A stretch of 64,000 bases of DNA. Origin: Dudresnaya verticillata (Eukaryota). Below the pieces are notes generated by a model, which worked only from the letters and a program-made list of their open reading frames with translations, searched no databases and was not told the origin of the DNA. Numbering within the stretch: position 1 is the first letter of the stretch; every line of letters begins with the position of its first letter. Location of the stretch: positions 744,001 through 808,000 of the forward strand of contig OZ374557.1 in the NCBI GenBank assembly GCA_977862235.1, written 5' to 3'. Shown here piece after piece: positions 1,299 to 48,759 of the stretch. The position numbers were made by a program, and so were the translations under genes.

Positions 1299-1542
1299 AA
1301 TTCTGTTTTTGTAATCGTTGGCTTTTCTTTACTTTGTTTCTGACGTCGGAATAGCTCTTGTGCTGAGTTTCACCCTCCATGCGAACGTGGAATTGAATGT
1401 AACTACTGACAATATTCAGTGACAATTGACACTGCATGCCTGCATGCTTCTCTATCTTGACCACCCATTTATAATCTCCGGCCAAGGCTGGGCCAGATTG
1501 ACTTCGCTCGACGTTCTGTGCACCTGCCCAAGTTGAGCGACA
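1299..1542 (-). repeat. 3' LTR of Copia-1
   Basis: Aligns with 5013-5245; begins TGTCGCTC on the minus strand. Confidence 0.9.
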
Positions 1543-1574
1543 CTCGAAGGTTTTTTCTTTTTGGAGCTTTTGCT

Positions 1575-4500
1575 TCAAATCGATTTATTTCGCGTCCCGC
1601 CAACCCAACCTTCCGGTTTGACTTCTAGCCGGTTGGTAGTCAGTAACTTCCAGAGAGGGTGCGAGTCTCCTACAATTCCTGTCGTTAAACCATCAGCAAC
1701 ATTTTGAGTACCGGGTATCCAGGCTAAGTAGCGAAGTTCCTTGCGTGCATGGCTTTCCCGAATTGCAAAAATACCACTCTGAAGGCGTTTCTCCAATGTC
1801 GAACTGTCCTTGGCAACTATATTAAACAATGTCTTGGAGTCCACATAAGCATCAATGTCTAGCGCTTTCCCAAGAATTTCCTTCATCATCTCTCTCACTA
1901 TGTATGCATTATCAAAACCATACATCAAAGCGTGAAATTCGGGTGCCATAATGGAACGAGTAACTCGTTTGCATCGGGAACTGCCGTAATGAATAATGTT
2001 GGCGTTATTGTGTTCATCAGCCAGCACTAACACAAAACCTATCTGCGATTTGAGGTTTTCGGCGTTAGCAAAAGATGCGTCGGTGAATAAAACTAGCCGT
2101 AGAGATTTGTTGTCCAGCGGAATATAGCTCAACCCTATGTCAGCGGTTTCATGACATCTTTTCACAACGTTGCGCAGCCTTTTGAAATCAGATGGTAGTG
2201 GACTTGGAGCTGAACTAGCGAGTAGTTGAACGACTGCAAAAAGGTCAGGACTGGTACAACATCCAACATACTGTACTTGCACTCGAACGCTAACGAACTC
2301 GCGGTCATTTTCCGGCATCTTGAGCTTTCGGAGCTTATCCTGCTGCGTAATACAATGCTTTCTACCGCCTTTGATGGAAATGGTCATCCCATTGAAAGTA
2401 CTGTGGTCCCCAGATCTCAATATCTTCCGTGGTTTGCATTGAAACCTTCAAGATGCCCTTTCCTCGTCTTGCAGAAATTCATTAGTACCGTTGCTATATG
2501 AGTCATCTACTTGTAATGCTGTTACTCCTTTCAGTACTTCATTTTCCATGCAGTACAGCAGGTAAGGGTCATACTTGGTGGCCTTCATGAAACTTTTCTC
2601 GATATGATGTGTAGAGTAAGTAATGAACCAATACAGTCCACTCTCTGGAATTCCGTAAGGAGGCTTCCTGACGAGAAGAACCATTCCTTTTTCCAAGAGC
2701 ATCTCCCGTGGGGGTGTAAGGTAAATCTTTCGTTTGAGGGGGTACTCAGACTGGAGATAGGCTTGTGAGATGTCCCTGATATAGGACGAAACTTCAGGAA
2801 ACATGGAACCCAGTGCCAATGCGATCCTCTGACCAACTCGGCTTACTGTAGGAGATTTCGTTGGTATCTCGGAAGCTCCTTTGTCACAGAAGTTTTGGGG
2901 TACCAGTCTGGATTTCTCGATCGTTTTTCCTTCTACCGACTTGAGAAGATCAACCCATCTTGAACCATATATCCGTGTTCCTTTTGGGATACTAGCCTCC
3001 TTCACGACCTCAAACACTTCTCGTTCCTCGAGACGCTTCAGCTCTGCTGCTCTGGATTCGGCAAACGTGTGATCGACACTGGGGTTTGCGATGTATATTT
3101 CCTCTCTTAACATTTCATCCCCGAACATATTCTTCAAAACATCTTCAGTCAGGTAGACACTGGTATCATCAATGGTACAAGGTTGAGTTGTTGCATTATC
3201 GACGTTCTTCGCTGGTGAGTCCTCATGCTGAACTTTAGGTTCGATAATGTCAGAGTATCGTGATTCTGTCATAGGCTTGATAACGTTCGTCCGAAAAATC
3301 TTGCGAACAGAAGAGAGTTGTACTACGGCTGTCTCTCCATCCACATGAATAAAGGGAAACGGTCCCTCCACTTTTTGGAGTTAGTTCTATACACGTACAC
3401 TGGGGAACCGGCAGGGATCTTTCTGAGCACGGCGCTGTGTTCTGTTTCCTTCGGACCACCCGAGTGCATTAAACCAAATGATATTCTTCTCTTGGACTGC
3501 TCCTTGTTTATGGCGTCCATTGATTTATCAATAGCACGTGCTCGTGCTAGCTGTGCGTCAGCCGGAGTACTTCTGGCCGGTCTCGGGATAGTCCCAAATA
3601 CAAGTAAACTTGGACATAAACGTTCTGGACCGATGGTGTCATTTACAGCTTTGACGACCATTTGTAGACACGCATTATCTACTTCTTTTCTTGGCATCCT
3701 CTGGCGCATTTTGTTGTAGGCTATGCGAAGTGGACCATGGTATATCTCAACATGAGACATGGTAGACGGAGATTCAATAGGAGCTTGTAGTACGGATATT
3801 CCATCAGCTTAAGCATTGTCCAGGAACTCTTTAGACACAAAGTTGGACCCTTGATTGACACGACGTAAAATTGGGTGGGCCTAAGTATACTAGTGACTAG
3901 CACTTGAGAAGAGGCTTCCAAACGGACGCTGAACTATGGCTTTTTAGGAAAGCTGCAGCGCAGTAGTGCGTTGCCTCATCGACGACATGTAGGACGGCTT
4001 TCCGGTTAATAAGCATCAAGTCCGCCGCAACAATATGATTGAAACGTAGGTCATCAGTACCAACAGTAATCTTGAATCGACGGGGCCTCGATACATTAAC
4101 AGCACAAGTCACACAGGACTTGAAAATCTCTGCCACACTCTCTCGTACTTCTGTGGTCATCTCCGCTGGTCTCGTCTTACGAAGTATATTGATGAGAGCT
4201 GATACGGAAGGATGTCCAAAAACGCGATGGAGCTTCTTGAGTTCTGCCTCGGTGTAGAGCGAATAGGCTACATCTCCGCGACTCCATTTGTGAATAAGGA
4301 AATAGTTCTGTAGAGATAGTCTTTGCCTCAAGTGCTTGTAAAGTACCTCTTTTTGTCGTATTCTGATGTCTAAACCGCTTTCAAGCATATCTTTCATGCT
4401 AAGTAGTGTTGGCACATTATCCGAGACTATCTGAAACTTGACGTCGATAACAAGATATAAATACCTGAAAGGGACCGGGATGGTTACAGTTCCAACGGTT

Positions 4501-4942
4501 TTGCTCTTTCCTCCTATTCCTCGTATAGTTCTGGTATCACAGCGATCAATCTGGCATGGAACCTGGACCTCTTCCCAGTAGGCCTGTACTGGGAGTAAGC
4601 CATCACCGAGGAACGGTTCGCAAATGCGTCAGCATATAACCCCTTGAATGGGATTCGTTCGGCAATTCTCAACTCCGCATGTATTGCTGCCAACTGCATG
4701 TCGAGGTCCTTCGCAAAAGTTTTTCCATGAAGGAATGACACGTTCGCTAAATGTGCCTCCTCATTCTCATTCTTATGCAGACTCATGTCATCTTCGTGGC
4801 AATCTTCAACGATATGAGCGGTGTCATCTTCACTCTCGGCCTCGTCTGACATGAAAATTTTATCCTCGCTATCTGACTCCGAATATCCAATCGTCAATCC
4901 TTCAGCAATAAGAGCAAGGTCTTCCACAGTTAAAGGTGCCAT
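1575..4942 (-). pseudogene. Copia pol (PR-IN-RT-RNase H), frameshifted
   Basis: IN: LHRVFGHP...CVTC, VAADL, VVDEATHY. RT: KSRLV, DISQAYLQS, YGIPESG, QVDD. RNase H: FTDASFA, YVDSKTL, NVADGLT. Confidence 0.93.
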
Positions 4943-5012
4943 GGGGTTCCTCTTTCGTAGCTTCTCAATCGCTGCAGATAGTTCAGCTTTAGAATGGCGA
5001 GTTCGGTCAAGA

Positions 5013-5245
5013 TGTTCTGTTTTTGTAATCGTAGGCTTTTCACTTTGTTGCTGACGTCGAAATAGCTCTTGTACTGAGTTTCACCCTCCATGCGAACGTG
5101 GAATTGAATCTAACTACTAATAATATTCAGTGACAATTGACACTGCATGCTACTCTATCTTGACCATCCATTTATAATCTCCGGCCAAGGCTGGACCAGA
5201 TTGACTTCGCTCGAAGTCCTCTGCACCTGCCCAAGTTGAGCGACA
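5013..5245 (-). repeat. 5' LTR of Copia-1
   Basis: TG...CA ends (tgttctg...gagcgaca); aligns with 1299-1542. Confidence 0.9.
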
Positions 5246-5384
5246 TCGTGACCTTTATGCTGAATTCGTCAAGGACGCTTTCATATTTCTGGAGAACGCG
5301 ATAGCTATTCATGCAATATACGCTTTAGTCATGAAAAACGCTGCGGGATGCAGCCAACCTCTACCGGTGTTTATAGCTTCCTCC

Positions 5385-6110
5385 GAGATTTTGTCGCGAA
5401 GGAACTGGGCTTTAACGGCGTATGCAACAATTCCCTGGACGCCGTTAGTGGTCGCGACTTAGAGGTAGTTTCGACTTGCAGCATTTTAATGATGCATCTG
5501 TCCCGCCTCAGTGAGGATATCATATTCTTGACGAGCCAAGGAGCTGGATGGATTGAAACTGGCGACGCGTTTTGCACGGGAAGCTCCCTTATGCCGCAGA
5601 AAAAGAACCCAGACATGTGTGAGCTGACGGGTGGAAAACTTGCTCGGGTTTACGGAGACCTTATGACTTTGCTTACGAATATGAAAGGAATCCCTGTGGC
5701 ATACAATCGCGACATGCAAGAGGATACCGAGCCCATTTTCGACGCTATGGACACTGTGAAGCTGGTGCTGTCGGTTTACGGGCCAATGGTTGCATCGATG
5801 CGTGTGAATAAGGAGCGCATGTATGAAGCAGCGAGTGATCCGGCTCTAATAGCTACGGAGTTCGCGGAGTGGCTGGTCAAACAGGGCGTTCCGTTCCGGG
5901 ATGCCCACCACCGGGTTGGTCGTCTGGCTGGGTATAGCCGGAAAACTAGTGTGAATCTTGATAAGTTAACCTTAAAGCAAATTTAAATCTCCGTAACGGA
6001 AGCGAACGCTGAGTGTCTCAACTTGTGGAAGCCTGAGCAGAGCGTCTCCCTGCGGAACACGGTAGGCGCCACGGCCCCGGAACAGACCAAGCAGCAAATA
6101 TCCAACACAT
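5385..6110 (+). pseudogene. argH: Argininosuccinate lyase, C-terminal half, with premature stop
   Basis: NSLDAVSGRD, HLSRLSED, the fumarase-family signature GSSLMPQKKNPD, YNRDMQED and GVPFRDAHHRVG. TAA at 5984-5986; the same frame resumes with ...SVSLRNTVGATAPEQ. N-terminal half absent. Confidence 0.92.
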
Positions 6111-7018: not shown

Positions 7019-7280
7019 CCGGATAGTTTTCTGCGAATGCGAGCCGCCAGGACCTATCCGGCAATATCGATATTATTTTTTAGGTTTTCTCGACAGCAAA
7101 ACCTCTTATTATAGGTTTTTGTGAAAGTGATTTTGAAAATACCTATATAGGTATTTCCAGATTCAGTGTAGAAATACCTATTAAACAGATATTCGACCTC
7201 ATGCGCCGCGAAAACCTATTCATCAATACTGATATTAGTGTTTAGGTTTCTGCAAGCTCGAGCTGTGAAAACCTATCCGG
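7019..7280. mobile_element. MITE-like element
   Basis: Terminal inverted repeats CCGGATAG-TTTTC / GAAAACCTATCCGG. AT-rich interior with many ACCTA/TAGGT motifs in both orientations. GG flanks both ends. Confidence 0.55.
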
Positions 7281-7614: not shown

Positions 7615-7950
7615 TTACATTTCAGTTTCTCGCGAGGCACAGGACCACTCTAAAGATTGCCGATGGCTATACATTTCCGGTATCTCCCCTCCATCCGAAC
7701 CGGGGTTCTGTCGGTTCTGTACTGGACCATACATTCTGGTAATCGCCCTGAATAGGGCCCTGACGCTCCCTCTAATGCTCCTCAGCGCGTTCACAGCTCG
7801 CCTGCTTTTGCCGTACAAAATCTCGCTCACGGCTTGTGCCACGGCCCGAAGTTGCTCATCGAGATGGTTTGCTCTCTTTTGCAGTTGTCGAACCTGCACA
7901 CGGAGTTTGTCAATCTCACCTCTCAGCTCCTGGATTGTTTGACGCGTCAT
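7615..7950 (-). CDS. Small coiled-coil hypothetical protein
   Basis: ATG-initiated 111-aa ORF with heptad pattern IQELRGEIDKLRVQVRQLQKR. Confidence 0.35.
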   Translation of the reverse strand: MTRQTIQELRGEIDKLRVQVRQLQKRANHLDEQLRAVAQAVSEILYGKSRRAVNALRSIRGSVRALFRAITRMYGPVQNRQNPGSDGGEIPEMYSHRQSLEWSCASRETEM

Positions 7951-8213
7951 TCTGATTTCTCTTCTAGCCCCTTCTCACTGGGCACTTCGGTGTGCAGTGC
8001 AATGGAACTCAAACTGGAGGGGCAGGCAAATGTGATTCCGGATCTGAATCCAACTCGATGTCCACCTCTTCTCTGTGTTCAATTCCCAACCTTTCTTCAA
8101 TTGAACGTAGTCTGTCTCGAGCCTGCCTGGCAAAGCTCATCACCTGTACAACCACCTTTTCCACTCGGTTGAAAACATCGCTATATATGACATCCAGGCG
8201 CAGTCGTGTGTCA

Positions 8214-11200
8214 TCAATGAACGACCTCATCTGGCCGAACCTCAGCCCGAAGAGTCTGAACTTCACGCAGCATGGTCGTGGGGTCAAGACTTGGAATTCG
8301 GTCGCGATGTACATGTGCGGGGTTCATGGTGCATGTCGTTTTACATGTTCCAGACATTGCAGGGCCATTGCAGCAAAGCCGCACTCGATCTGGGATAAAT
8401 GCTGCAGACGGAGGATTCTGAAAAGCTCGTGGCAGGCAATTATACCCAATATGCATCTCGGAGGTTGCTCTGACCGTAATATCGTACGACGGCGATTCCA
8501 ACTTGTGCAAATCCCATGCGAAGAACCCCACCAGCCCACTCAGTGTCTCCGGAGATCCCTCTTGGCCTGTGAAACTATGCGGATACTTCCGGGACTCACA
8601 TCCAGGTAATGCGCTGAATCCGTAAAGAGAAACGATATATTCTCCTTCCTTCGCAACCTTCGACAAAGACACTCCGTGAAGGGTCTCAGCTATTTTGGAA
8701 CGCTCAGCATTTCGTTGCACAGATGCTGTTCCGACTTTATCTCTGTCTTGAAACAGGACTACCTTCGAAGCACCCCGTAGAGGATTAGATTCTGAGCCTT
8801 CCGGACTAGTTTGTTTCTGTTTGGCGGGTTGCTGGTCTGTTACAGTTGATGTTATCACATTCTCATCATTCCGTACTACTTTCCGTCTCTTCTCAGCGGA
8901 ATCAGTATCGGTAGTCGTTTCACAGTGTTGCCGTTTGACGACAGTGAGTTTGGAAGAGCGCACCTTTTCATTACACACATCGACTGAGATTTTCTTCAAA
9001 CGATCATATGCCAGTCCGAATGTTGCGGGGTTCTGATCCATGCCCTCAGTCGGATGCCCCGTTCGCAATCCAGCAGTGCAAGTGGTCAGGGTACCTCCGT
9101 AGACATCCAAAACACGTCCACCATCGGGACAGAAAGTTGTCATGACCTCCATTAGAGCCAACACATTCTTCTCCTCTACCAGAACAGGGGATTTGGTCCC
9201 TGGCTTCAGCAGCTTTTGCCTCGATACTGGAACACCTGAGAAGGCTACGAACTTTCGCCGATCTTTGCTTCCCAAGAAGTGAAGTGGACTGGAGAGGTCA
9301 GGCTTGAATTTCCACCACTCGTTCCCCGTCGGCGGCCAAACGCCGCTATTTCCGTAGCATTCTGTGGATAGTCTTTACGATGTCTCTACAATGTCCTCGT
9401 ATCTTTGGAAACGGTGAAGGGATACTCCGGGCAGTCGAGCCCAGCATGAAACAGAGCACGTTGATACTTTGCGAAGTTAATGAAACTGCAGAAGATGAAA
9501 ACCAGTGACCAGGTTTAACGACCCCTCGACAGAATTCTATGAATTGCTTAATCTCCCCATCGCTGAAATAATTGTCGTAGGATGTACCAGCATTCGAACG
9601 AATAGGCGGTATTCCGTACGGAGGGTCCGTCAGTATGAGGTCGGTTAGTGTGCTCGAATCGTCTCGAACGGACTGGGGATACGTCTGCAACCTCATGTGG
9701 TGGTAACTGATGCTCATTGAATTCAGTGCATCAGCTTCTTCAGTACCTGATGTTTCGAGCTTTTCAGACTGTACGGTAGACGCGGACGATCGTGTATGTT
9801 TTGCATTCCCATCCAGATGGCAAGTCGTGTCCTCCCCGGTGTCTCCAGCATGGCTATTGGCTGTCCGTTTCTCGTTTTCATGTGTTCTGCCACAGTTGCC
9901 ATCCTCATTTGTTGATTCTTGCTTGTTTTCCAACGGTTCGGAAGGGTTTGTTCCGGAACCAATAGAACTTTCAACACATCCCGCGGCGACAGACTTGCAA
10001 TACTGTTTATCAACAGGTGCACCAGGTTTTGGTGAAGGAGTGGAATCTCCACAATCATTGCGCTCGACACTATCACAGTGCAAATGCGGCCCTTCCAGAG
10101 AGGCATTATCTGGACACTTGCTGATCTATGCGTTGTCTTATTTCCGCCAATGCTCTTAAGCAAGTCGACGTGCTTCTTCTACTTAACAGCAGCTTCCTCG
10201 GGACAGACATACCTGTACAATTCCAGTATAGATGCCACAACGTCCTTGTCATTTCCTATATTCTCCGAAACCTCATCATCCATCTTCTGTGTATTGAGAA
10301 GGTTCGAGTGAAGCCCCTGCATGGACTCTGGCCACTCGTGACTTTCCCGGAGAGCTTCAAACTTACGAACCTCGCGAAGAGCGGCGGTGGCCTTTGAAAC
10401 TGTTCCACAGTGTACCGGTAAGACAGCGGTTTGAAGTTATGTAAACGACGCAATTCTCTCAAACGGTATAAAGTCGCAATCTGTGCTTGTACACCATCCG
10501 GTGCTTTCGACGCGTTCATGAACACTGTTGCGGACTTAAGAGATGTTGTTGATGAACTTGCGGTACACTCGACAGTCCACACTTTTATTGATGTCCTTGT
10601 GATTCACAGTTTTAGATCGAATCGACACCAAATCATCCCTCTCCTCGTTTATAATGTCTCCGAATGTGTCAATCACTCGCGGTCAAGTCTAAGGACAGTA
10701 TGGGCAGTCTGTTTAACCGTATTGTCCTTGAAATGATTTCATCCGTCATAGGCTTCAGCAATCCTTGTGGCATTCGGAAGTTTTCCGCCATTCCCCGCTG
10801 TGAGACGATCTGCCTCCTCTTTCATGCCTCGAAGGGTATCGAATAAAGTAGTCTAGATGTAGAATGAAGAATCGTGCTTGTCATTCTGGTGATGAGCCAA
10901 TTGTCGAAGTGCCTGCAATTCATGGATCCGTCTAAGAACAGTAACAGGCCATGAAAAAGATTTCCACGTCTCGTAATCCTCCTCCCGGAGTTCTGTGATA
11001 GCTATAAGTCTGTGCATCCCGTCCACTGCCCCATACCACTTGGCTCGATTGCTTGACATTTCCACGGATTCTTTTTGCGAGTATGACGTTCCGTCTTTCT
11101 TCAACTTTTGTTGGAAGTGCTTAATTACCAAAGATCGAAAGGACCCCGACATTGCAATTACAATGGGAGCGTCAAAGCCAGCAACATATCCAATTGAACT

Positions 11201-11440
11201 AGCTCGAGGATCGTGGAGGTCCTTGCGCGACGCATCAAAGCGCCCCTTCAAACGCTCCACTCCAGACCTCGCAATAGGTCGAATGGCCTTCAATGGAATA
11301 CAGGAAGTGGGATCTACTCTTGTGTTGACGGAACCATCTATTAAGTCGGCGAATAGAGCTTTTGCGATCTGTGTCGATCGAGGAATCTGTTTAGGTCCAG
11401 CACCTCTCGACTTTCGCTTCCCACTACCCATTCCGAACAT
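8214..11440 (-). pseudogene. ParB-like domain + beta-class N6A/N4C DNA methyltransferase + TNP1/En-Spm-like C-terminal domain (stops and frameshifts)
   Basis: YGAVDGMHRLIAI (ParB/Srx motif, ~11010). DLILTDPPYG (motif IV, 9616-9627), then VVKPG. EKNVLALMEVMTTFCPDGGRVLDVYGGTLTT...AYDRL (motifs X-I-II, ~9000-9175). LHGVSL...YIVS...ETLSGLVGFFAWD (~8495-8770). Confidence 0.8.
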
Positions 11441-12222
11441 GAAGTTGATTACCTAGAAGGCCGTGAATTATTGTAGAGCGAAGTTAAGAACTTAGGCAAA
11501 CCCCGGAAGGGGCGTGCAAAGTGGCAAGTGAGCTTTCCCGCGTTGACCGCACAGACTACCGCTATACTCTAAGCCTTGGAGACAGGCATCATACTATATA
11601 TCGCATGGAGATCCTGTGTGCTTTCTTGCAACGACGGAATAAAGATAACTATCTTTACGTCATGTAACTGCCCTGGGGACGACCGTACAGTTTAAGTGCA
11701 ACCGTAACGGTGGTGAACGGGAGATTATGATTCTCGTCAATCAAATTTGGGTAGGACAACAACGTGTGCTAATACGAGAGCCAAGTAATACGTGGGCAAT
11801 CCGAATCCCAGGTTCATGTGATGAGTTCGGTCTCTCTCACATATACTTTGTGGAGAGGAGCGGGAACAATATATCCTGTAAGACATCTCTCACGACAGTT
11901 TACGGCACGAAGCAATAATGAAGACCACAGCCCGCCACCGTGATGTTGAGATGACTACTGTAACAGGAAGGGCCCCTCATCGAGTCTCGGAAGTGGCTCA
12001 CGCTCAGTTACTCAGGACTGCATACCATTGAACTTGAATCGTGCATGGCACATGGATGGCACTATCGAAAAGAACAGAATGGAGCACAGAAACCCGGCTG
12101 TACACCGTCAATGTCTGACAGAGCTGCAGGACGTAACATTTGATATGGTGGAAGTGGGCCAGAAAATGGAGTCACTGAATGTAACCGCCTTGTGCAAGGA
12201 CGGGTAGTGTGCGAAGGACATC

Positions 12223-12645
12223 GTGAAACGGATCGTAGTGGCAAGATTGGAGACTATATTGATATACTTCAGCAGCGCAGGGAAGGAAATAACCGGTCTA
12301 GAAACTCTGGGCATCAAGCTCTTTGATAGGTCGCTCTTCAATAGTTTCATAACGGATGTAATAGGGAAAGAAGGACAATACAGTGCGGCAGGGCGCGAGA
12401 AAGATTTCGCATTTAGTAACTTCCTCAGGGATGCAAGGGAGAGAGGAATGCAGAAGCTGCGTGAGATGGCTCCCAAACCTCTGCTTATAGACATGGATAA
12501 GATGTCAGCACGAGAACGTCGACAGTATGAGACAGCAGTTCGCAAAGTCCATGAAGAGAAGCGCAGAATCTCAAGGATGAACATTGTGAACATTCCTCCA
12601 CCAGGTACTCCCATCGATTGGGATTCGCCGCGTCGGCAAAAATAA
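12223..12645 (+). CDS. Hypothetical protein, probably the 3' part of a disrupted gene divergent from the MTase gene
   Basis: Protein-like 140-aa frame; the same frame is open for ~80 more codons upstream of one TAG. Confidence 0.35.
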   Translation: MKRIVVARLETILIYFSSAGKEITGLETLGIKLFDRSLFNSFITDVIGKEGQYSAAGREKDFAFSNFLRDARERGMQKLREMAPKPLLIDMDKMSARERRQYETAVRKVHEEKRRISRMNIVNIPPPGTPIDWDSPRRQK

Positions 12646-12830
12646 TAACAACTAAGGACCAAGAACGGTTTGCATGCTAACGATTCCCGACGTTGCAGTG
12701 GTGTCGCAATAAGGAAAAGGTGTGAAGAGTTGGTGTAAACGAGGTCAACTAAACTTCGGAATGGCGCCCGGTTCCGTCTATAAAAGGGAGTGGTACAGTG
12801 TCGATTTGAGGGTTGGTGGAGACGACTTAG

Positions 12831-13112
12831 ATGGAAAGCTGCGGTAAAGCACAGGAAGCGTTGGTGCTGAAGATGCGGAGCCTGCGCGCTGAGCTAGAAG
12901 AAGCTCTGGCGCGAGCCAGGCGTTATACCAGTGACGCCAAATGGCTTCGTCTAGACTTGGTGGGGCCGCCTTGGGTCATGGTTGCGGATGCGGGCGCAAT
13001 TCGGGAGACAGTGAAGGTGGTTCTGGGGGGAATACTGGTTTTGTTAGAGTAGTGGACGGTGGAGGTCGATGAAGAAGACCTGGAGCCTGAAGCGGACTGC
13101 GGTTTAGGGTAA
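12831..13112 (+). pseudogene. Small coiled-coil ORF, paralogue of 28902-29171
   Basis: RSLRAELEEALARA...WL...*WTVE matches RALRAELDEARALA...WL...EWTVE. TATAAAAGGG lies ~50 bp upstream. Confidence 0.5.
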
Positions 13113-13959
13113 TGGTAGTTGAGGTGTGTTAGGTACAGATAAAGTGCATACAGGAGCGGTTGTGTATGTTTATCATGCTGAGGCGCTTGAAGAGGGGAAC
13201 GGGAACAAGTAAGGAATCGTGGTGCGGACTACTACGGGACACGGCTTTGAGCGCACTTTCGAAGTTGGTTCAAGTGCACGTCTCGAAATGGGCGTTTGTG
13301 ATTTTGAGCAGGGTGTCTATCGAGCTGCAGCTCGCTACATGTATAGGGAACTGCACGGGTGAAGTACGAGGTGTCCGGAGCGGGGAACGAGGTCTAACTG
13401 AGGACCACGGTGAATTCACGGCAATGTGGGACAAAATTCAGTACCGGAACCAAAGTCCAAGCCGCATGGAGTAGGTTGACGGAGAAGACGGTATACACTG
13501 CGAAGAGCGCTACATGAATGCTGTTGCACTGTGCAGCACATGCTGTAACGTTGGTGAAACAGGGATTACAATACTTGGGTGGGGTTTTTGGTTGTCATGG
13601 AGGGCACCGAGCCGATGTGTCGGTGAGGAGGGAGCGTGTAGCGGGCGAGTGCGACTGCGCAGAGCGAGTGCTGAAGCCTAGGGAAGAGCAGAGAGTGCAT
13701 GGCAGTAGAGAGATAGCGTGCAGTTGCGGGTTGGAGAATGCACGAAGCTGCACTGGATTGATTCCGGGAAGGGAACTCATGACAGCGCTGCAGTACTCTG
13801 CATGTCATGGGGAGAGCGGCATTGAACTGACGAGTAGTTCTGCACTGTTAGCGCAGCATATACTGCGCGGTGAGGAGCCCATGGAAGTAGTTTGCACCAG
13901 CGTGCTAAAGAGACGCTCCCCTTTCTAACTAATGTACTTTAGAAGCGTTCTATTTCAGT

Positions 13960-14587
13960 CTGTTTTTGAAAGTAGATTCTGTAACATTGGAAACCAGTGT
14001 TTGTGGTGCTCAGTCACGAACGTGTTATAGACTGCGAGCTTCTCATAGAAGGGGAGGTGGATTTCAGCTTTGTCTAGTTGCGAATCACCAGACACTTCTG
14101 CGAGGCGCTCCAGAAACGACGTTATCACCTCCAGCTGTTCCGTGGAAGTACCACCAACTATCAGCCCCCTCCCTTTCCTTTCGCGGTTCTTGTTCTTTCC
14201 TTTCAGTGCCGACTACAGTTCTCTAGAGAAACCGAAAGCCTTGTCCAGAAATGAGTAACAAACCGGCCGTCCGCTGAAGAAGTACATGTTCGAGGTGGGT
14301 TCCAGTAGTCCCGTGAGGTATCGCTTCCTTTCCGCGCGATTCTTGTCCATCATTTTGCGTGACTCAGCCCTGATGTAGACTGAATCAATGGTTCCGAAGC
14401 ATTGCTTCGTTTGGAAGCAGAACATGTTTGAGATATCCTGAGTCTCCAACACCTCCACTATCTTTTTCCTCTTCGCAGCCATCAAATGCCCCGATGGTGT
14501 TCCTTTCGGACGTGCATCATGTCTACAATTCCTCTTCCGGCTCGTCCTAGCACTATCCTGGCCGCCTCCACGCCCTTCTAGTGCCAT
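13960..14587 (-). pseudogene. N-terminal part of a Cys-rich putative DNA transposase (DUF7869-like)
   Basis: CFQTKQCF...YFFSGRPVCYSFLDKAFGFSR; after a frameshift, SFLERLAEVSGDSQLDKAEIHLPFYEKLAVY. Confidence 0.5.
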
Positions 14588-15173
14588 CTCCTCCCCTTCG
14601 GAGGGGTGCGACTCCGGCGTGTCGGAATCAGCATCCTCCCCATCGTCTGCAGTCCCGACACCAGGATGCTCTTCTTCAGAAGCGTGATCAAGACCCCGCG
14701 CACATCCTTCTGCTGTGTTGTCGATGGGAGCATGGTCTTATTGTGCGCCGTTCCCGGAATGTCCTTTATCCCGTTCAACTTCGGTTGGTTTTGGAGCCGC
14801 GTCATTACTTCCCAGTTTCGATAACACAGCTTCCATGTTTTCTTTGCCGTCTAATTGGTATGGTCGCGGACACATACGGGCGGGAATCTTCGTGGTATAA
14901 ACCAACGCAGTCTGAGCATCTGCAGCAGCAGGGGGTGTAGAAGGCTCACCTGCTATTGCAGCCGGGGGTGCAGACGGAACACGTGGTGTTGCTGGCAGTG
15001 TAGTAGTGCAGTCATTACCTTCTCGGTGTGGCTGACCGCTGGGATCAGACTGACCGGTACGGGTGCTTTTTGTCGTCAATGTCGGCTTACGAGGAAGTCC
15101 CCGACCCCCCTACGCCCTGACCGCCTAGTTGACATCCTAGCACGAACAGTATAACTCCCACTCGGTTGCTCCA

Positions 15174-15767
15174 TTACGGTCGCAGGGAAACTTCCCCGAT
15201 CGCCACGCCCACCTCTGCAGTATCGCCTGTAGGTTGCTGCTTCACAATTCGGATTTTCTCCCTGTCCCATACATGAATGCCAACACTTAGACCAGCTAGA
15301 GTGGTGGGTGGAGACTCTAGATCGGGATACTTATACATGTACCTCTTGTCCCCATGTCCATTCCGAATACGGACATTATAGATGACTATCCATGTCTCCT
15401 TCTTCCGTTGCACGTCTCTTGAACACGCTCCATGCATCTTCACTTTGAATGCACCTGTACTATCTGCCTCTTGCGGAGACGCCGGAGGCATTAGATCAGC
15501 CGTACCCACCTCCTCTCCGTCTAGCAACAGCACTAATTTATTCGACGCTGACATCTTTTGCGTGTCAGGGTTGGTCACTGCGGGCGCGCTTCCGCTTCCT
15601 GTTTTCGAACGGGTTCTTCCACAGCCGTCTCCTTGCCGTCTCCTTACCGATAGTCTTGGCCGTAGATTCGTTCCCTCCCCATCACGGAGAGGGCATGTCG
15701 GCCGGCAGTGACCGTACTTTGACGCAAACCAGTGCGATGTTCTCTCGTCTGAGATATTTCGTACCAC
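15174..15767 (-). pseudogene. C-terminal TNP1/En-Spm-like domain, paralogous to the MTase C-terminus
   Basis: KLVLLLDGEEVGTA...MHG...RYMY...PTTLAGLSVGIHVWDREKI aligns with KVVLFQDRDKVGTA...LHG...KYPH...PETLSGLVGFFAWDLHKL. Confidence 0.7.
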
Positions 15768-18121
15768 GATGGAAGTAAGGGCCTCGTTTCGCCCGGATCA
15801 GTGCCGTAAATAGCGCTGTTGAGTACGCGTTGCACGATCATGAGAAAAGAACGGTTGGGAGGTCAAAAGCGGAAAGTGGCCTTTGGAGGCGGTCAGCGCA
15901 GCCAGGGGGAACTAAAATATCTGGAAGAGAACGCAGTGGATGCCGGAGTGGTGTCGTTGCTGAAACCTCTCTAGATAACTTCATATGCTGTTCTGTGTGC
16001 ATATGCAAAACGGAATCACCAGTGAGTGAGCAACGGTCTACCTATCGATAGTCGTCCAACCCACTCCAAGGAGGCGTTTTTTCGTCCCCCGAATAGCAAT
16101 ATCGCCTTGTACCCGGCATGCGTTCGGAACATGTATGGGCTGGAGGCTGTCATTCACCGATTTCCGGCAAGGAATCTGCTTGTGAAGTGGGATCAGAACG
16201 ACTAGTGATTTTGTGCGCTGTTCATGTGCACCGTGCACGGTTTACCACGATTTGGACCTTGTACTAGTATTACCGGTCTATTATAATACATAGGTATAGC
16301 AAAAGCATCATCGGAGTGCCGGGTTCCATACCCTTCAAGTGGAATCAGAAGGAGCATCTCATGGGATCCCTGCGGCACCCGCACTTCCGAATGGGAGTCT
16401 CAGAATTAGCAGCGAATGGGAGAGCTCTATTATTTTGCAACAATACCCTTGGTACCTGACTTCTGACTCTTACCCGAAAACTTGGGTCAGAGCTGTATCG
16501 TGTGACTCCTGCCCTGGTACAAGCCGGAGCTGTGGCGCAACATGGTTCTGCTCGGCGACTTGGTGAACAGATATTACTATCTCTTTCCGCAACATATGTT
16601 CGCTTGTCCCGCGAGAGCGGCGGCGATGACGTCCGTTCTGCCCTTGTGGGTGAGTGTCTGGAGTATCTGGAAAACACACCGTGCAGACGTTTCACTTCAA
16701 AAAAACCTGCAATTCACGGTTGCAGGCCATCTTGCGTTGTCAACGCCGAAGGAAATTAGTGATACTGCTCCTTTTGGAAAAGGTCTGAACTGGATGCTGC
16801 AGGCCGCTTTCATAGTTGGTTTCTCCTTTAAGACATTTGTAATGTGGGCGTTCTGTCCTGAAAACTGGGCGTTGATATGCGGGTGCATAGACAGGCTCAT
16901 GTTCAATGGTGGATCTACCTTGGTACTCAAGGATGATGATGTACTGGGCGTCTTAAGGCACCCTGTGACTGCTTCTTTTACCCAGGATGGTTTCTCGCAA
17001 ACAAAAAGGCTGGCTCTGGGAACAGTATGAAGTTAGCAATAGGGGTGATTCGAAAAGGATATGTAATAACGTGCGGGTTGCCTAATTCTCCGAGATTCTC
17101 TCAAGCCGTCAGCCACCATTTCAGCCTCATTTTGACAGTTTCGGACAGATTAGCTTAAGAGAAAATGGGGAATACCTTCTGTATAGTACTCTTACATCAA
17201 AATGTCCGCGATGGGAAACGGTCCTGGAGAGATGTGTATCCCAAGGTCACGAGGCCAGCTATTGTTGCACTTGTACGGTTGTCCTAGGACAACTGTACAC
17301 GATGTATCAGCCAGATGTCGAGTCTTTCTCGCACGGCGCTGCAACACACCCGTATACATGAACTGTCTCTCCGAAAGTGTAGTTGGAAACTTTACCAAAA
17401 TCAAGAAGCGTATGGAACGCAAGCCGGTCTCTGTTATCGAACGAAAAGCCTTGCGAGTGCAGGATTTGGTGTTTTCCAGTCTTGCCCTAATAACGCTAAC
17501 TGCAGTGCAGGAAATTGGAGAAACGATGCATTCTAGAGCCGCAGAAGACGAAAGCAGAAGCCATGCTGTTGTACGCGAACACACGTGGAGCTAACGTAGC
17601 TGGATAGATAAGGTTCGCAAGTGCCATCTTCGTGCAAATGCGATCCAGACCTGTCGAGGTGGTGAGCAGAACCAGAGGATCGCTGCTGTGTACATTGCTG
17701 GGAACTATCGTTAGTGATACAAAATTGGCAGTGTATACTTTGCACGTTTACGGTGAAGATGCGAATGGCGGAAGAGGAGACAGGACCGGGACTCAAGGGG
17801 CTCAGAGGGTGAGTTCTGATTGCCTTCAGTGGGTCACGCTCTCCAGCCACAGCCTAAAGAACCTGCTCGTTAGTTTGATAAGGTGTGAGCTGTTCTTTGA
17901 GGATCATGAGCTGGCTTGCAGTGTTAAGAATATCGCCGAGAAGGCGTTGGGGCAGTCAATTGAGCTACAAACAGCGTAGCTGAGGTGTTTTAAGCAGATG
18001 AGAACGTATGATGGCTGACAAGATGAATAGGGCAAGGAGGTTTGGATGGGCGTCTAGTTGGGAGATTGGATTGCCAACGAGATGGAACCGTACTATATGA
18101 CCATCAAATGAAATGTATTAC

Positions 18122-19511
18122 GTAGGTCTCCCCATAGTAATGATTAGTCAGTGTACGAGGCCCCTCGAGGGCTTCGTACACGTAAAACATTTGTAGAAAT
18201 AAACATCCGCCCGCCATTGCCATCCCTTGCCGCCAATCCTATTTCTACGCACGCCTAAAAATATTTCTAGTTCACCCTTTTACGTCCAATAGAAAAATTC
18301 AGCAGCAGCAGCAGCAGCAGCAGCATCAGCAGCATCAGCAGCATCAGCAGCAGCAGCATTAGCAGCAGCAGCAGCAGCAGCAGCAAAGCTGCAACCCCAT
18401 TGGCTCACCGCCAAGCCGCGCCACCCGAGTGGCTGTATTTTGCCGTGGTACCAAATCAACGCGCGCGCATTGGTGCGCTCCGATTTTCTGACAGTAAATT
18501 GACAGACGCGCCGCAGCGCTACAGTGATACGATCTTACAGTCCCGCCGTGCGCCTCCATTCCTAATTTATGTGATTAAAACCGCACCTGTCCTAGGGGCC
18601 TAGAAAGCTACTTTACATAATTAAATTGGTACTGTAGTGCTCATCCGAAGTGAGCTCGCCGTGATCTCGCTGAGGCCGTGTAAATCGCAAACTACAGGGC
18701 CATATCAGCGGCAGCGGGGAACGCTCCCGCACGACTCTTCCCCCCTCTACGCGAGCGAGCAAGCACGGGTGGAAGCCCGGGGCAGGTAGAATGAGTTGTG
18801 GCCCCTTCGCAACGGGTACAGATCCTGCTTGATTCCCGTCGTCGCTGCCCCGAGTGGTAGCAGCGCGCCCTGGGGGGCCGAGAGGGTTCAACGGGTTATC
18901 CGTGGTGGGCGCAGTTCAGAGCGGTGCGAGCGCGACACGCATACCGGCGACGCAGCGACCCGAATTGAGATCCAGCGACGCGAATCCAGATCCAGCGACG
19001 CGCGACAAATTGTTTTTAATTTAGTGCATACGGCATTTACGGTAGGAAAAGAAAAAAAGTAAAACAAAAAAGAAAAACAAAAAAGAAAAACAAAATCAAA
19101 ATCAATAGTTGCCTAATTAGACTCTGCCCGCACGCGCAAAAATAAATCATAAGTCAAAAAAGACTTAGGAAAAATCGCATTGCTGTCCGCGTCCTGGATC
19201 GGGCTCTGAAAAATCGTCATCGGTTGCGTACTAGCGCTAATCATTTTTTGCGGTTTCAGTTTCGCTTTGGTGATGGACCCCTGGTAACCATCGCGACCAA
19301 TCGTCTGCTAGTGCAAGCCCCACAGATTGTGACTCGGGGGGCGGCAATTCGGCAACTCTGAGTACCCTTTGCGTTGAGCCTATTGGTTCCGGGAGGCGAA
19401 AGGGCGACCCGTTTGCTTTTGACAGTGCTTCGGCAGCCCTGTCTAAGTGCGTCTCTTTGGAGGGCAGACGTGTAACGGCAACACCACTCCGGTGTTGTCG
19501 GTTAAAGAAGC
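18122..19511 (+). repeat. 1.4-kb Helitron-associated unit, copy 1
   Basis: Reverse complement of 51966-53399. Contains hairpin GTGTACGA...TCGTACAC, a (CAG)n tract and an A-rich tract. Confidence 0.92.
18300..18384 (+). repeat. (CAG)n microsatellite with CAT interruptions
   Basis: Directly visible. Confidence 0.97.
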
Positions 19512-19865: not shown

Positions 19866-22800
19866 ATGGTTCGCGGAGGCCCCAGACCCAACTCTGGGGG
19901 TCCGCGTCCTAACTCAGGAGGGGCTCGTGCCAACTGTGGCGGCGCCCGTGCCAACTCTGGTGGCGCCCGTGCCAACTCTGGCGGAGCTCGTGCCAACTCT
20001 GGTGGCGCCCGTGCCAACGCTGGTGGCGCCCGTACCAACGCCGGTGGTGCCCGTCCAAGCACTGGAGGTCCACGTCCAAATGCTGGTGGCTCACGTGAGA
20101 ACGCAGGAGGCCCGCGCCCGAATGCCGGAGGGTCACGTTAGCACGCTGGGGGGTCGCGCCCGAATACAGGAGGTCCGCGTGAAAACGCAGGAGGACCGCG
20201 TGATAACGCAGGAGGATCACGTCCCAACACAGGAGGTACACGTCAGAACGCAGGTGGGCCGCGTGAAAATGCGGGCGGGTCGCGGTTGAATACAGGAGGT
20301 CCGCGTGAAAACGCAGGAGGACCGCGTGATAACGCAGGAGGATCATGTCCGAACACAGGAGGCCCACGTCAGAACGCAGGTGGGCCGCGTGAAAATGCGG
20401 GGGGTCGCGGTTGAATACAGGAGGTCCACGGGAGAACACAGGAGGACCGCGACAGAACGCAGGAGGCCGACGTGAGAATTCAGGCGGTGTTCGAACCAAT
20501 GCGGGAGGAGCACGGCCCAATGCAGGGGAGCACGATCGAACGCAGGAGGAGCACGGTCGAATGCAGGAGGGGCACGGTCGAATGCAGGGGAGCACGGTCG
20601 AATGCAGGGGAGCACGGTCGAATGCAGGGGGGCACGCCGAGGGGCCGGGAGACCTAGGAGAAGGACGATTCCGGAGCCGGACCAAGGAAGTGTTGCGGAA
20701 CAAGGGGAGCACGTACCCGTCGGGCCGGCCGTTGAAAGCGTTGAGCCGAACATAGCACAGTCCGTTCCTGGGAGCACTGACAGGACGATGATGTCAGAGG
20801 TTGGGAAGGTGGAACGTGGGCTAATTAAAGTCTACTACGCTTTCGATAGCCGAGCTGAAGAAGCAAAGGAGCAAGACGTAGTTCCGTCGGAATTTGACTA
20901 TCCAAGGGATACAAGGAGAAGGTGTTCGAAGTTCGGAAATCCGACACACAATTCACGACGTTGTCCGCTGAAGGGATGGGTACTGTACATCAGCACTTGC
21001 AAGTACTGTGGCAGTATGCTCGTCGGAAAAGAAAGCGACGGAGTGTGCTGTGGGAAGAGGAGTACTTCAGGATGGGGTGTGACGCTTCGAAGGAGGCATT
21101 TGTCGAGTCAGCTGAAGGAAATGTACAAGATGCGGGCGTTCCGTACGATGTCAGTGCAGCTGAACACACTGTTTGCGACGTGTTTGTCATTTATGGATCT
21201 TAAGTTCATGCCGTCCGGTGGACCGTCGTTCATGAAGCTGGTCGGCAACGCAGCGATCGCTGTACCGAGACGTGATGCGCGCTACACTTTTCTGTGGTCC
21301 AATGACGCCCCGCGTTTGAGAGAGGGAGACCAGAGGTCAAGGCTGTTGCGAGATGCAGTTCGCAACAGCAATGTACGCGCCATGGTTCCTGTACTGTACG
21401 ACAAACTACTGCCTCCCCCACGCATTATGCGTGAAAGGTACCGAACACTGGTTTCGGGAACTGATCGTGCACGAGGCGTGGGAAGTTCAGCTCAAGGCCA
21501 AGCATCGGCAGTCGATACTGTAGAAGTTAATGACCAAGTTGCAAACGACGGTGTGGTTGTAGAAAACTATCGTGGAAGGCAGGTTGGTGAGGTACAAGCT
21601 GTGACAGGAGTTGGACCGCTGCCACAAGACCAAGCAGGAGTTCCGACGCACCTCCTAAGTTGCACTGTTGAACCTTCTGGTCTATACCGATCCGATCAGC
21701 CAGTCGTTCAGTTGGTTGGCAATGCTGACATTGAACCGGATCACGAACGTGGAACACATGTTGTGAAGTATCGTACACTTAACGTGGGCTCGAAGATAGC
21801 GGAGGTGGGCGCGTTCCCGTTACTGTATCCGTTCGGAGATAAACATGAGCCGTTTGACTTGAAACGGTTCATTCAAGCAAAGTCAGATAACATTGAGCCG
21901 TCGAGTACGAGAGAAGCGAATAAGAAGAAGCTCCAGAAGCTAACTTGGGCGGCAAACGTCAAGCGCCGCCTGTACACGGACAATATTCTACAGGAGAGCG
22001 GTACACTATTCCAGGTCTGGATACTGCGAACTGCTACAAACATCGAGCACCAGCGACTCAAGTTCTTGGAGCGGGAGCAGACATCAAGGATCGTAGAGGA
22101 GAGGGAGCTACAGGAAACTGTAATGGATGATGACGACACGTATCTTATTGGGAGACGGTTCCTTCCGGATAACCAAGTGAACTCAGCGTCATATTGGAAA
22201 GGGAAGCTCCTGGACGTACAAGCTATGGTCGCTAGGAGGCATGTCCCTTCTCTGCTCGTGACTGTGACAATGAATCCGTGGGGTGAGGAGATGGGCAGAC
22301 TGGGTTTGGACATAGATCATCGAAGTACGTTGCAGCCTCATGACCGTCGACCACGTGTGTTTGATCCTCCCGATATCACGGCAAGAGTCTACAACCAGTT
22401 CGCCAACGATGTCATGAGGGAGATTGAGTCCAACTCGGAGGAATACTTTGGACGCCGTTGTATCGGAATCGCTTCCAAGTTATAGTTCCGGGAACGTAAC
22501 ACGCCACACACCCACATACTAGTGTTCCTAGAGGGCGGCCTGCTGGAAGACTTGGACGAGATTGACGGGATTATGAGTGCGGAGTTGCCTTTGGCGTCCG
22601 AGGATCCAGAGCTCCGGGAACTGGTGATGCGTTTCAACAGACACCGGCACTCTCCGAACTGTAGAGGGCGTACTCGTAATGGAAGGTGTCGTTTTGGATA
22701 CGACCAGACTGCCGTGACGCCGACAACCTACATGGATGAGACCTGCAATCGCGTGGTGTACCGCAGAAGGAAAGAGGAAGATCTGAAAGTAGTCCTGTAC

Positions 22801-30159: not shown

Positions 30160-30426
30160 AGTCGTAGCTTAGAGGCGTGTGCGCGCGTCGACAGAGGTGA
30201 TCTAGATTCGGATCCCGATCCGTGCCAGCATTGCTGGCGCGTGGTCATTACAGGCGCACGCCTTACATTGTAACTGATCCCGATCTGATCCCGATGTCTG
30301 ATCCAGATCCAATCCGGATCTGGGCCATACTTACAGACGCACGCCTTACACCCCTTGGATCCCGATGGGTGATGCGTGCCGCGCTGGGCGTACAGTGCTT
30401 GAGCCGCCATGCCCGTGCGCGATTGC
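30160..30426 (-). repeat. Old diverged Gypsy LTR remnant, left part (split by Copia-2)
   Basis: Similar to 33955-34240 (GCCAGCATTGCTGGCGC, GATCC repeats). Confidence 0.8.
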
Positions 30427-31052
30427 TGTCGTAATTCCACAGTACTGACTGCTCGACGGAGCAGGACTGTTACGGATAAAGTCATATTGACTTCTAAGGG
30501 CTGCTACGGACAGCAAAATCAGGCCAACGGCCTGATATTCATACAGTGGAGGAGTCGAAAGGCAGCAGAGGTATTATTGATACCTCTATCCTCCTCCACT
30601 ATAGAATATGGGCCAGGTCACCCATGCAGTTTACTTTACCGTCGCTTAAACAAACATTGAACAGCGAAGCCAACTCCACGCTGTAGGAATAGCTTCTAGT
30701 TTGGTAGTGTTTAGACCCATTCCTGGGTGGCGCCATCTAATTTACCCCTCTCCGTTTAGCTTTTACCCCTCTCCGTTTAGTTTTACACAGTCAAGCCTAG
30801 CGCTACAGGACTATAAAGTTGCCGTGAACCAGGAAGCTCCCTACTTCCCAACACCAAGAATTTTACCAACTGCACCTCTCCAGAACTTCGTCAGCTCACC
30901 AGCCGCCGTCGATATCTACCCGGCACTATACGCACCGGCCCTCGCGTGTGTCCCGACCCCTCTCGACTACATACCGTCGAGTAGGGCCGGTTATCATCCC
31001 AACACCAAGACCCGTCCACCTCCGTGGACGAACCCAAGCCGATTTGACTATA
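30427..31052 (+). repeat. 5' LTR of Copia-2
   Basis: Near-identical to 48155-48759 apart from a 21-bp internal duplication. Confidence 0.95.
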
Positions 31053-48154: not shown

Positions 48155-48759
48155 TGTCGTACTTCCACAGTACTGACTGCTCGATGGACAAGGACTATCA
48201 CGGATAAAGTCATATTGACTTCTAAGGGCTGCTACGGATAGCAAAATCAGGCCGACGGCCTGATATTCATACAGTGGAGGAGTCGAAAGGCAGCAGAGGT
48301 ATTATTGATACCTCCATCCTCCTCCACTATAGAATATGGGCCAGGTCACCCATGCAGTTTACTTTACCGTCGCTTAGACAAACATTGGACAGCGAAGCCA
48401 ACTCCACGCTGTAGGAATAGCTTCTAGTTTGGTAGTGTTTAGACCCATTCCTGGGTGGCGCCATCTAATTTACCCCTCTCCGTTTAGTTTTACACAGTCA
48501 AGCCTAGCGCTAAAGGACTATAAAGTTGCCGTGAACCAGGAAGCTCCCTACTTCCCAACACCAAGCATTTTACCAACTGCACCTCTCCAGAACTTCGTCA
48601 GCTCACCAGCCGCCGTCGATATCTACCCGGCACTATACGCACCGGCCCCCGCGTGTGTCCCGACCCCTCTCGACTACATACCGTCGAGTAGGGCCGGTTA
48701 TCATCCCAACACCAAGACCCGTCCACCTCCGTGGACGAACCCAAGCCGATTTGACGACA
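48155..48759 (+). repeat. 3' LTR of Copia-2
   Basis: TGTCG...CGACA followed by TSD ATTGC. Confidence 0.96.

What the first reader, a model, noticed from the sequence alone, without database searches (positions are those of the whole stretch)
8214..11440. ParB-like + beta-class DNA amino-methyltransferase + En/Spm TNP1-like fusion in a eukaryotic TE field
Seen: one disrupted minus-strand gene of ~1000 codons with, in order, VDGMHR, a helical region, an acidic linker, LILTDPPYG, VVKPG, YPQNATE, EK...PDGGRVLDVYGGTLTT...AYDRL and a C-terminal VGTA...LHG.SL...YIVS...TL.GLVG.FAWD domain. Established: motif IV before X-I-II defines beta-class N6A/N4C MTases, DPPY usually indicating N6A. ParB-MTase fusions are typical of phages and prophages. 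The C-terminal pattern resembles the TNP1/En-Spm (PF03017-like) domain of CACTA accessory proteins. Inference: a DNA transposon carries a prokaryote-type methyltransferase joined to its own accessory domain, i.e. a TE-encoded writer of 6mA or 4mC that could mark or protect the element. This copy is dead.
Basis: partly seen in the sequence, partly recalled or inferred. Interest (0 to 1): 0.88.

Follow-up and report, generated by a model that had tools for sequence, protein, structure and literature searches.

The report
Seaweed transposon's dead ParB-methylase gene
This broken gene, likely from a red seaweed, belongs to a large family of bacterial-style DNA-binding-plus-methylase genes that likely ride on jumping genes and would let them mark their own DNA, a design already reported from algae.

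Summary
In detail: a 1,072-codon minus-strand gene with 6 frameshifts and 4 stops. It has 123 relative clusters. Of the 37 long ones, 36 join a ParB/sulfiredoxin-fold domain, a helical domain and a beta-class amino-methyltransferase (model matches CcrM at Z 23). The family is expanded in the red alga Asparagopsis, where three contigs carry it head-to-head with a gene like the transposase-like ORF 2.5 kb upstream in this window. An array of 11 palindromic half-sites lies 0.9 kb downstream. Transposon cargo is therefore well supported. The element is more likely Sola-like than CACTA (transposase label recalled, no profile hit), and no ends were found. The TNP1 label got no Pfam support. The C-terminal domain is an SH3-like barrel, found again upstream of the transposase-like ORF; relatives end instead in a PHD-like finger, SET or nothing. 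The window copy sits in a DPPY-keeping clade, but 32 of 54 relatives lack a canonical motif IV, so catalysis is unproven. The design and the self-marking idea are already in print (Ectocarpus Sola1-1; Bostrychia PAG2/PAG3). Verdict: new member of a known kind, interest 0.4.

The parts
8214..11440 (-). Disrupted ParB-helical-methyltransferase-SH3-like gene (1,072 codons, 6 frameshifts, 4 stops); true 3' end probably near 8490
10860..11340 (-). ParB/sulfiredoxin-fold domain with DGMHR motif (limits approximate, mapped from P0135 residues 11-170)
   Evidence: fold matches to PadC, pNOB8 ParB, KorB, sulfiredoxin; tblastn map
10140..10850 (-). Conserved all-helical domain following the ParB domain (limits approximate); predicted DNA-binding/dimerisation part
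   Evidence: AlphaFold2 pLDDT mostly above 90; pNOB8 ParB aligns over model residues 6-343; function inferred
9740..10122 (-). Acidic, disordered linker
   Evidence: pLDDT under 50 in the relative
8960..9738 (-). Beta-class N6A/N4C methyltransferase domain (DPPY motif IV before motif I), split by two frameshifts and a stop
8496..8780 (-).
   Evidence: model pLDDT 89; best Z 4.4, weak; no Pfam match
7021..7280 (.). Array of 11 TAGGT(A)TTT-type half-sites, five of them in inverted pairs; candidate binding site of the ParB protein or subterminal repeat of the element
   Evidence: role inferred
13976..14482 (-). N-terminal fragment of a transposase-like gene (CF, GRPVC and IHLPF motifs), one stop, C-terminal part not recognisable
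   Evidence: by-eye match to Asparagopsis Ata00413, Ata02042, Ata02196, each beside a family gene; no Pfam match; 'Sola/DUF7869-like' is recalled
15246..15554 (-). Second copy of the SH3-like domain, upstream of the transposase-like ORF; same gene or a separate one is unresolved
   Evidence: tblastn from independent relatives E 5e-7 to 5e-9; 29% identity to the C-terminal domain, E 8e-12 pairwise

Best explanation
This is a dead copy of an accessory gene that likely belongs to a Sola-like cut-and-paste DNA transposon of a red seaweed, and its intact product is predicted to bind the element's own palindromes and methylate adenines on the element. Shown: the fused ParB-helical-methyltransferase architecture, the size of the family, its dispersed near-identical copies in Asparagopsis, and repeated linkage to the same neighbouring gene. 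Inferred mechanism: the ParB and helical domains dimerise on the inverted half-site pairs (7021-7280), which places the beta-class methyltransferase on element DNA in cis; the DPPY enzyme writes N6-methyladenine; the variable C-terminal module (SH3-like barrel here, PHD-like finger or SET in relatives) couples this to chromatin or to the transposase. The mark would favour expression or mobility of the element, or keep host silencing off it. My odds by step: methyltransferase fold 0.99, ParB fold 0.9, transposon cargo 0.9, Sola-like carrier 0.7, array is the binding site 0.55, DPPY clade is an active 6mA writer 0.55.
For: 123 clusters at 50% identity, E up to 0.001. 36 of 37 hits of 780 aa or more carry ParB, helical and methyltransferase parts (profiles built from the family itself). 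PF01555 above cut-off in 32 of 42 scanned. Model of P0135: CcrM Z 23.0, rmsd 3.2, 228 aligned; PadC Z 8.2, rmsd 2.4, 97 aligned; pNOB8 ParB Z 7.5, rmsd 4.6, 216 aligned. Asparagopsis has 66 PF01555 genes; all 8 of 8 PF01555 rows in the held part of its gene table look like this family by eye, with near-identical pairs on different contigs. On 3 of the 9 contigs looked at, a gene like window ORF 14482-13976 lies head-to-head 1.5-1.9 kb away. Array: 9 of 34 window-wide matches to the 8-mer fall within 195 bp; 0 of 1000 shuffles reach it for 5- and 6-mers, 1 of 1000 for 7-mers. The window copy groups with DPPY-keeping relatives (96-97 SH-aLRT; 96/94). The same design is in a curated Sola1 element.
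Against: No terminal inverted repeat partner or target duplication found in the window. The neighbour has no Pfam match and no database hit; its Sola label is recalled. In the window the two genes are on the same strand, not head-to-head. On the other 6 of 9 Asparagopsis contigs no close neighbour of this kind was seen (one has a fragment resembling, by eye, the neighbour's C-terminal part 10 kb away; rows for two contigs were seen only in part). Motif IV is canonical in only 22 of 54 relatives, with at least 8 changes on the tree. None of 115 relatives has both glycines of the usual FxGxG motif I. ParB Z-scores of 6-8 are in the range the tool calls common. The array motif was picked by eye before testing, and other elements in the window have stronger arrays. 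No expression or methylation data.
Confidence: 0.55

Rival explanations
1. Same transposon cargo, but the methyltransferase domain acts mainly as a non-catalytic DNA-binding or base-flipping module; the protein organises or shields the element by ParB binding alone.
For: 32 of 54 relatives lack a canonical motif IV; a 19-member clade has none left yet keeps full-length frames. Motif I lacks its second glycine family-wide. DIRS1 retrotransposon methyltransferases are described as likely inactive (PMC4738411 passage).
Against: DPP[YF] is kept in 22 of 54 clusters under 50% identity to each other, across several branches, which needs selection on the motif. The window copy and its nearest relatives keep DPPY.
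Confidence: 0.25
2. It is an active writer, but of N4-methylcytosine, like the bdelloid N4CMT and Marchantia DN4MT1.
For: The fold also matches N4CMT (Z 19.2) and M.PvuII (Z 18.7). Some D-motif beta-class enzymes make 4mC (recalled).
Against: Motif IV is DPPY, not SPPY; the best fold and profile matches are N6-adenine enzymes.
Confidence: 0.1
3. One reading: a CACTA/En-Spm (or Plavaka) element in which the methyltransferase is fused to the element's TNP1 accessory domain.
For: By-eye likeness of the C-terminal domain to TNP1/DUF8039 (recalled). Red-algal giant EnSpm/Plavaka elements carry PF01555 and ParB accessory genes that move between transposon families. The methyltransferase groups with a methyltransferase-SET fusion of PAG2 type (97/99).
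Against: No PF03017 or DUF8039 match. No Plavaka or EnSpm transposase match in the flanks scanned (14738-15176 not scanned). The linked gene in Asparagopsis is of the other type.
Confidence: 0.07
4. A domesticated host gene, or prokaryotic or phage DNA in the assembly.
For: Best annotated matches are bacterial and phage methyltransferases.
Against: Prokaryotic, phage and plasmid matches cover only the methyltransferase domain, mostly at 21-29% identity; 0 of 1,722 ORFs in those loci match the ParB, helical or SH3-like profiles. The window is a eukaryotic transposon field. Many dispersed, often broken copies in Asparagopsis.
Confidence: 0.03

Closest known systems
Accessory gene of Sola1-1_Ec32, Ectocarpus (PMC12477816; passages and supplement rows read; figures and protein sequence not seen)
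   Same: About 1,100-aa protein with a ParB-like domain and an N4C/N6A methyltransferase, beside a transposase; the authors propose that it binds and modifies its own transposon. Opposite-strand layout recurs in three Asparagopsis contigs.
   Different: Different host group. The window copy is dead, same-strand to its neighbour, and has no recognisable ends. No C-terminal SH3-like or PHD-like module and no palindrome array is mentioned in the passages read. Sequence homology to the Ectocarpus protein was not tested.
Plavaka accessory genes PAG2 and PAG3 of Bostrychia and other red algae (bioRxiv 10.1101/2025.02.11.637652; sections 8 and 21 and passages read; supplements closed)
   Same: Red-algal transposon cargo with PF01555 (PAG2) and with a ParB domain beside tandem inverted repeats (PAG3). 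A methyltransferase-SET protein (P0122) falls in one clade with this family.
   Different: PAG2 is described as methylase plus SET and PAG3 as ParB plus 2OG oxygenase, on separate genes; here ParB and methylase are one chain and SET occurs in 1 of 123 hits. No Plavaka transposase nearby. PAG sequences were not seen.
Prokaryotic beta-class amino-methyltransferases (CcrM, M.BceJIV, M1.HpyAVI, M.MboIIA; PF01555), including phage ParB/terminase-locus methylases
   Same: Fold and motif order. A top phage match lies beside a terminase large subunit gene.
   Different: Only the methyltransferase domain matches, at under 30% identity; no prokaryotic match to the ParB, helical or C-terminal parts was found; motif I lacks its second glycine.
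Bdelloid rotifer N4CMT (PDB 8s9n; PMC8885841, abstract start and a term search only)
   Same: Bacterial-type beta-class enzyme in a eukaryote; a small barrel-type reader domain at the C-terminus (chromodomain, recalled).
   Different: N4CMT is a domesticated host enzyme making 4mC (recalled); it has no ParB domain and is not described as transposon cargo.

Membership tests
Beta-class amino-methyltransferases (PF01555) | Motif IV precedes motifs X-I-II | tested here: met
   DPPY at 9624-9613 precedes DVYGGT near 9107 on the minus strand
Beta-class amino-methyltransferases (PF01555) | Profile and fold match | tested here: met
   32 of 42 relatives above the Pfam cut-off; Z 23.0 to CcrM. The broken window pieces alone score only E 0.12
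Beta-class amino-methyltransferases (PF01555) | Catalytic [DNS]PP[YFW] motif | tested here: met
   DPPY in the window copy; 22 of 54 relatives
Beta-class amino-methyltransferases (PF01555) | Canonical FxGxG SAM-binding loop with both glycines | tested here: not met
   0 of 115 relatives have both glycines; the usual form is D-x-[YF]-[AG]-G-T-[LMF]. Effect on SAM binding unknown
Beta-class amino-methyltransferases (PF01555) | Methyl transfer to adenine or cytosine in DNA | not testable with these tools
   needs an assay
ParB/sulfiredoxin superfamily | ParB/Srx fold | tested here: met
   The four best non-methyltransferase matches are all ParB/Srx proteins: PadC Z 8.2, pNOB8 ParB 7.5, KorB 6.8, sulfiredoxin 6.3; modest Z values; domain not folded alone
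ParB/sulfiredoxin superfamily | Pfam ParBc-type profile match | tested here: not met
   0 of 42; one DndB match at E 5e-4, below cut-off
ParB/sulfiredoxin superfamily | Nucleotide (CTP) binding and site-specific DNA loading | not testable with these tools
   DG-x-HR is intact in 16 of 38 relatives counted; activity needs an assay
TNP1/En-Spm domain (PF03017) or DUF8039 | Pfam profile match | tested here: not met
   0 of 12 alignment members at E up to 10;
TNP1/En-Spm domain (PF03017) or DUF8039 | Remote homology by profile-profile or fold comparison | tested here: inconclusive
   No such profile or structure could be compared; fold searches give only generic SH3-like barrels, best Z 4.4, no Foldseek E under 0.001
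CACTA/EnSpm (incl. Plavaka) transposons | EnSpm/Plavaka transposase in the element | tested here: inconclusive
   No Pfam match in the flanks scanned; frames are decayed and 14738-15176 was not scanned
Sola1-type transposons with a ParB-methylase accessory gene | About 1,100-aa ParB plus N4/N6 methylase gene | tested here: met
   1,072 codons; intact relatives 786-1,186 aa
Sola1-type transposons with a ParB-methylase accessory gene | Sola-class DDD transposase | tested here: inconclusive
   Only an N-terminal fragment is present; no profile or database hit; class assigned from recalled motifs
Sola1-type transposons with a ParB-methylase accessory gene | Accessory gene on the strand opposite the transposase | tested here: not met
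   Same strand in the window; opposite strand on 3 Asparagopsis contigs
Sola1-type transposons with a ParB-methylase accessory gene | Terminal inverted repeats and 4-bp target duplication | tested here: inconclusive
   No partner for the left flank anywhere in the window; no second copy or genome available
PAG2 (methylase plus SET) | SET domain fused to PF01555 | tested here: not met
   SET in 1 of 123 hits (P0122), none in the window gene

The most novel reading that the evidence does not exclude
A modular, transposon-encoded epigenetic writer. A ParB clamp loads on the element's own palindromes and spreads 6mA (or 4mC) along it. Interchangeable C-terminal modules (SH3-like barrel, PHD-like finger, SET) tie it to host chromatin or to the transposase, and catalytically dead subfamilies persist as partners or mimics. 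With dozens of copies per genome, it could be a main source of amino-methylation in red seaweed DNA.
Probability: 0.2. Interest if true: 0.8.

Novelty: new member of a known kind. Interest (0 to 1): 0.4.

Why it matters
A transposon that writes a bacterial-type methyl mark on itself would be a rare case of an element editing its own epigenetic state; the Bostrychia preprint names only VANDAL as known to do so. The idea is in print, and the passages I read report no test. This work adds what a test needs: intact DPPY-type members (P0135, P0149, P0008), naturally altered members as controls, a candidate binding array, and the link between the unexplained 66-gene methylase expansion in Asparagopsis and a transposon. 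It also shows C-terminal module swapping, which the passages read do not mention.

Tried and rejected
No genome held; no sequencing run was listed. Word-index search with the 3' ORF found nothing although HMMER later found 123 clusters, so that tool's blanks are weak. One search was wasted on a wrong reading frame; the corrected search for the neighbour found nothing. Locus scans of metagenomes, viral contigs and prokaryotic genomes returned only distant methyltransferases, so I have no DNA context for any database relative; linkage rests on the Asparagopsis gene table. The ESM Atlas gave no answer. A complex prediction for the two SH3-like domains was never queued: no verdict. A shared 20-mer at 32870 lies inside a gag-like ORF and is chance. 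Iyer 2016 section 8 lists no red-algal permuted clade; the 2025 6mA survey has no occurrence of 'red alga' or 'rhodophyt'. The Sola superfamily paper, the journal version of the Bostrychia paper and Iyer 2011 were not read. Literature searches. The quick tree left P0122 unplaced; one row (P0106) was dropped before tree building, and one search used 20 of 65 family rows.

Full report
Observation. It reads as seven frame pieces, 1,072 codons, with six frameshifts and four in-frame stops. Four intact relatives map along it in order by tblastn. Relatives end shortly after the final WD motif, so the last ~90 codons are probably read-through. The window is a eukaryotic transposon field with copia, gypsy, Helitron and piggyBac-like remains. 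No genome or sequencing run was available. That the host is a red seaweed is inferred from the family's match to Asparagopsis genes.

The family. A HMMER search with the 3' ORF returned 123 clusters at 50% identity. With profiles built from the family's own alignment, 36 of the 37 hits of 780 aa or more carry the ParB-like, helical and methyltransferase parts in one chain, and 15 of 37 also carry the C-terminal domain. The three parts are therefore not separate genes. PF01555 scores above its cut-off in 32 of 42 relatives scanned. An AlphaFold2 model of P0135 (mean pLDDT 78) matches beta-class enzymes (CcrM Z 23.0, M.BceJIV Z 22.1). Its best other matches are ParB/sulfiredoxin proteins (PadC Z 8.2, pNOB8 ParB Z 7.5 over residues 6-343, KorB 6.8, sulfiredoxin 6.3). 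These ParB scores are modest and no ParBc profile matched. Prokaryotic, phage and plasmid relatives cover the methyltransferase domain only, mostly at 21-29% identity, and none of 1,722 ORFs in the fetched loci matches the other domains.

The C-terminal domain. It folds with confidence as a small beta-barrel (pLDDT 89) of SH3/KOW/Tudor type, with only weak matches (best Z 4.4). It has no Pfam match, TNP1 included (0 of 12). The by-eye likeness to TNP1/DUF8039 is recalled and could not be tested by profile comparison. A second copy lies at 15554-15246, upstream of the transposase-like ORF; whether the two are one gene is unresolved, and the Asparagopsis models of that gene do not show the domain in the text seen. 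The tail varies: ten hits end in a Cys/His-rich, PHD-like finger by eye, one (P0122) in a SET domain, and many in low-complexity sequence, some perhaps cut by contig ends.

Catalytic state. Motif IV is canonical in 22 of 54 relatives; a 19-member clade has lost it entirely, and at least 8 changes are needed on the tree. The window copy has DPPY and groups with DPPY relatives. Motif I lacks its second glycine throughout (0 of 115 with both). Activity is plausible for this clade but not shown.

Transposon link. The Asparagopsis genome paper (PMC12115072; section 7, passages and supplement rows read) reports 66 PF01555 genes against 4-6 in three other red algae, without explanation in the section read. 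The held supplement is cut at roughly the first 2,900 of 10,474 genes. All 8 of 8 PF01555 rows in it look like this family by eye; several are split or partial, and two pairs on different contigs are nearly identical. On three of nine contigs looked at, a gene resembling window ORF 14482-13976 lies head-to-head with a family gene, 1.5-1.9 kb away (Ata02042, Ata02196, Ata00413). The first two are near-identical duplicates of the whole gene pair; the third is a different subfamily. The comparison is by eye, over the CC/CF, VC and HLP motifs. On the other six no close neighbour of this kind was seen. That this gene is a Sola/DUF7869-type transposase is recalled; it gave no Pfam or database hit. 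In the window it is on the same strand as the methylase gene, truncated, and 2.5 kb away.

Palindrome array. At 7021-7280, 934 bp beyond the stop, lie 11 half-sites, five pairs in inverted orientation 17-26 bp apart. Nine of 34 window-wide matches to the 8-mer are here; shuffles reach the score 0, 0 and 1 times in 1000 for 5-, 6- and 7-mers; the strand folds at z -4.5. The motif was picked by eye first. No inverted partner exists elsewhere in the window, so the element's ends are undefined.

Mechanism. Most likely the intact protein binds the element's inverted half-sites through its ParB and helical domains, methylates adenines in cis, and uses its tail to engage chromatin or the transposase, which would help the element stay expressed or mobile. 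Architecture, family and linkage are shown; binding, catalysis, base specificity and benefit are inferred. The main rival is a non-catalytic binding role (0.25).

Prior knowledge. [quoted passage not shown] The Bostrychia preprint (sections 8 and 21 read) describes PAG2 (PF01555 plus SET) and PAG3 (ParB plus oxygenase, beside inverted-repeat arrays) on Plavaka and other elements. In a mixture-model tree, 20 family rows and P0122 form one clade against 14 prokaryotic rows (97/99); P0122 is on a long branch and the outgroup is small. Neither paper's protein sequences were seen; the preprint's supplements are closed and may already list this family as PAG2 homologues. Eight earlier, unchecked notes of this scan describe the same design in other genomes; they are leads, not support, but they lower the surprise.

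Verdict. Real and correctly spotted; transposon cargo well supported; TNP1/CACTA label unsupported; activity untested. New member of a known kind. Interest 0.4.

Noticed in passing
window 1328-5245: Decayed copia retrotransposon with LTR-like direct repeats at 1328-1542 and 5039-5245.
   Followed up: no
window 5264-5986 (+): Argininosuccinate lyase C-terminal part (PF00206, PF14698 above cut-off), directly beside the copia LTR.
   Followed up: no
window 20476-25417 (+): Helitron Rep/helicase (PF14214) preceded by a 21-bp tandem array at 19875-20547; by eye similar to Asparagopsis Ata00651.
   Followed up: partly
window 18122-19511 and 51966-53399: A 1.4-kb element present twice in inverted orientation, 85-97% alike, with a CAG-repeat core.
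   Followed up: no
window 30176-31048, 34023-34358, 46788-47123, 48155-48873: Another repeat family with its own palindrome arrays (ATCCGGA, up to 10 copies in 300 bp); ORFs at 49029-50044 look EnSpm-transposase-like from memory but have no Pfam match.
   Followed up: partly
window 55140-55982 (-): piggyBac-like transposase fragment (PF13843 above cut-off).
   Followed up: no
window 7615-7974 and 8009-8323 (-): Two short ORFs between the methylase gene and the array; the first is coiled-coil-like, the second overlaps the methylase read-through tail.
   Followed up: partly
window 11950-13800 (+) and 16200-17600: Decayed ORFs (e.g. 12208-12645) with no Pfam match; possible further cargo or an insertion that truncated the transposase-like gene.
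   Followed up: partly
proteins P0022, P0029, P0038, P0039, P0041, P0060, P0069, P0077, P0083, P0088: Family members ending in a Cys/His-rich PHD-like finger instead of the SH3-like barrel (by eye, no Pfam match above cut-off).
   Followed up: partly
Asparagopsis gene Ata01925 (PMC12115072 supplement): ParB/sulfiredoxin-superfamily gene without a methylase annotation; a possible PAG3-like gene.
   Followed up: no
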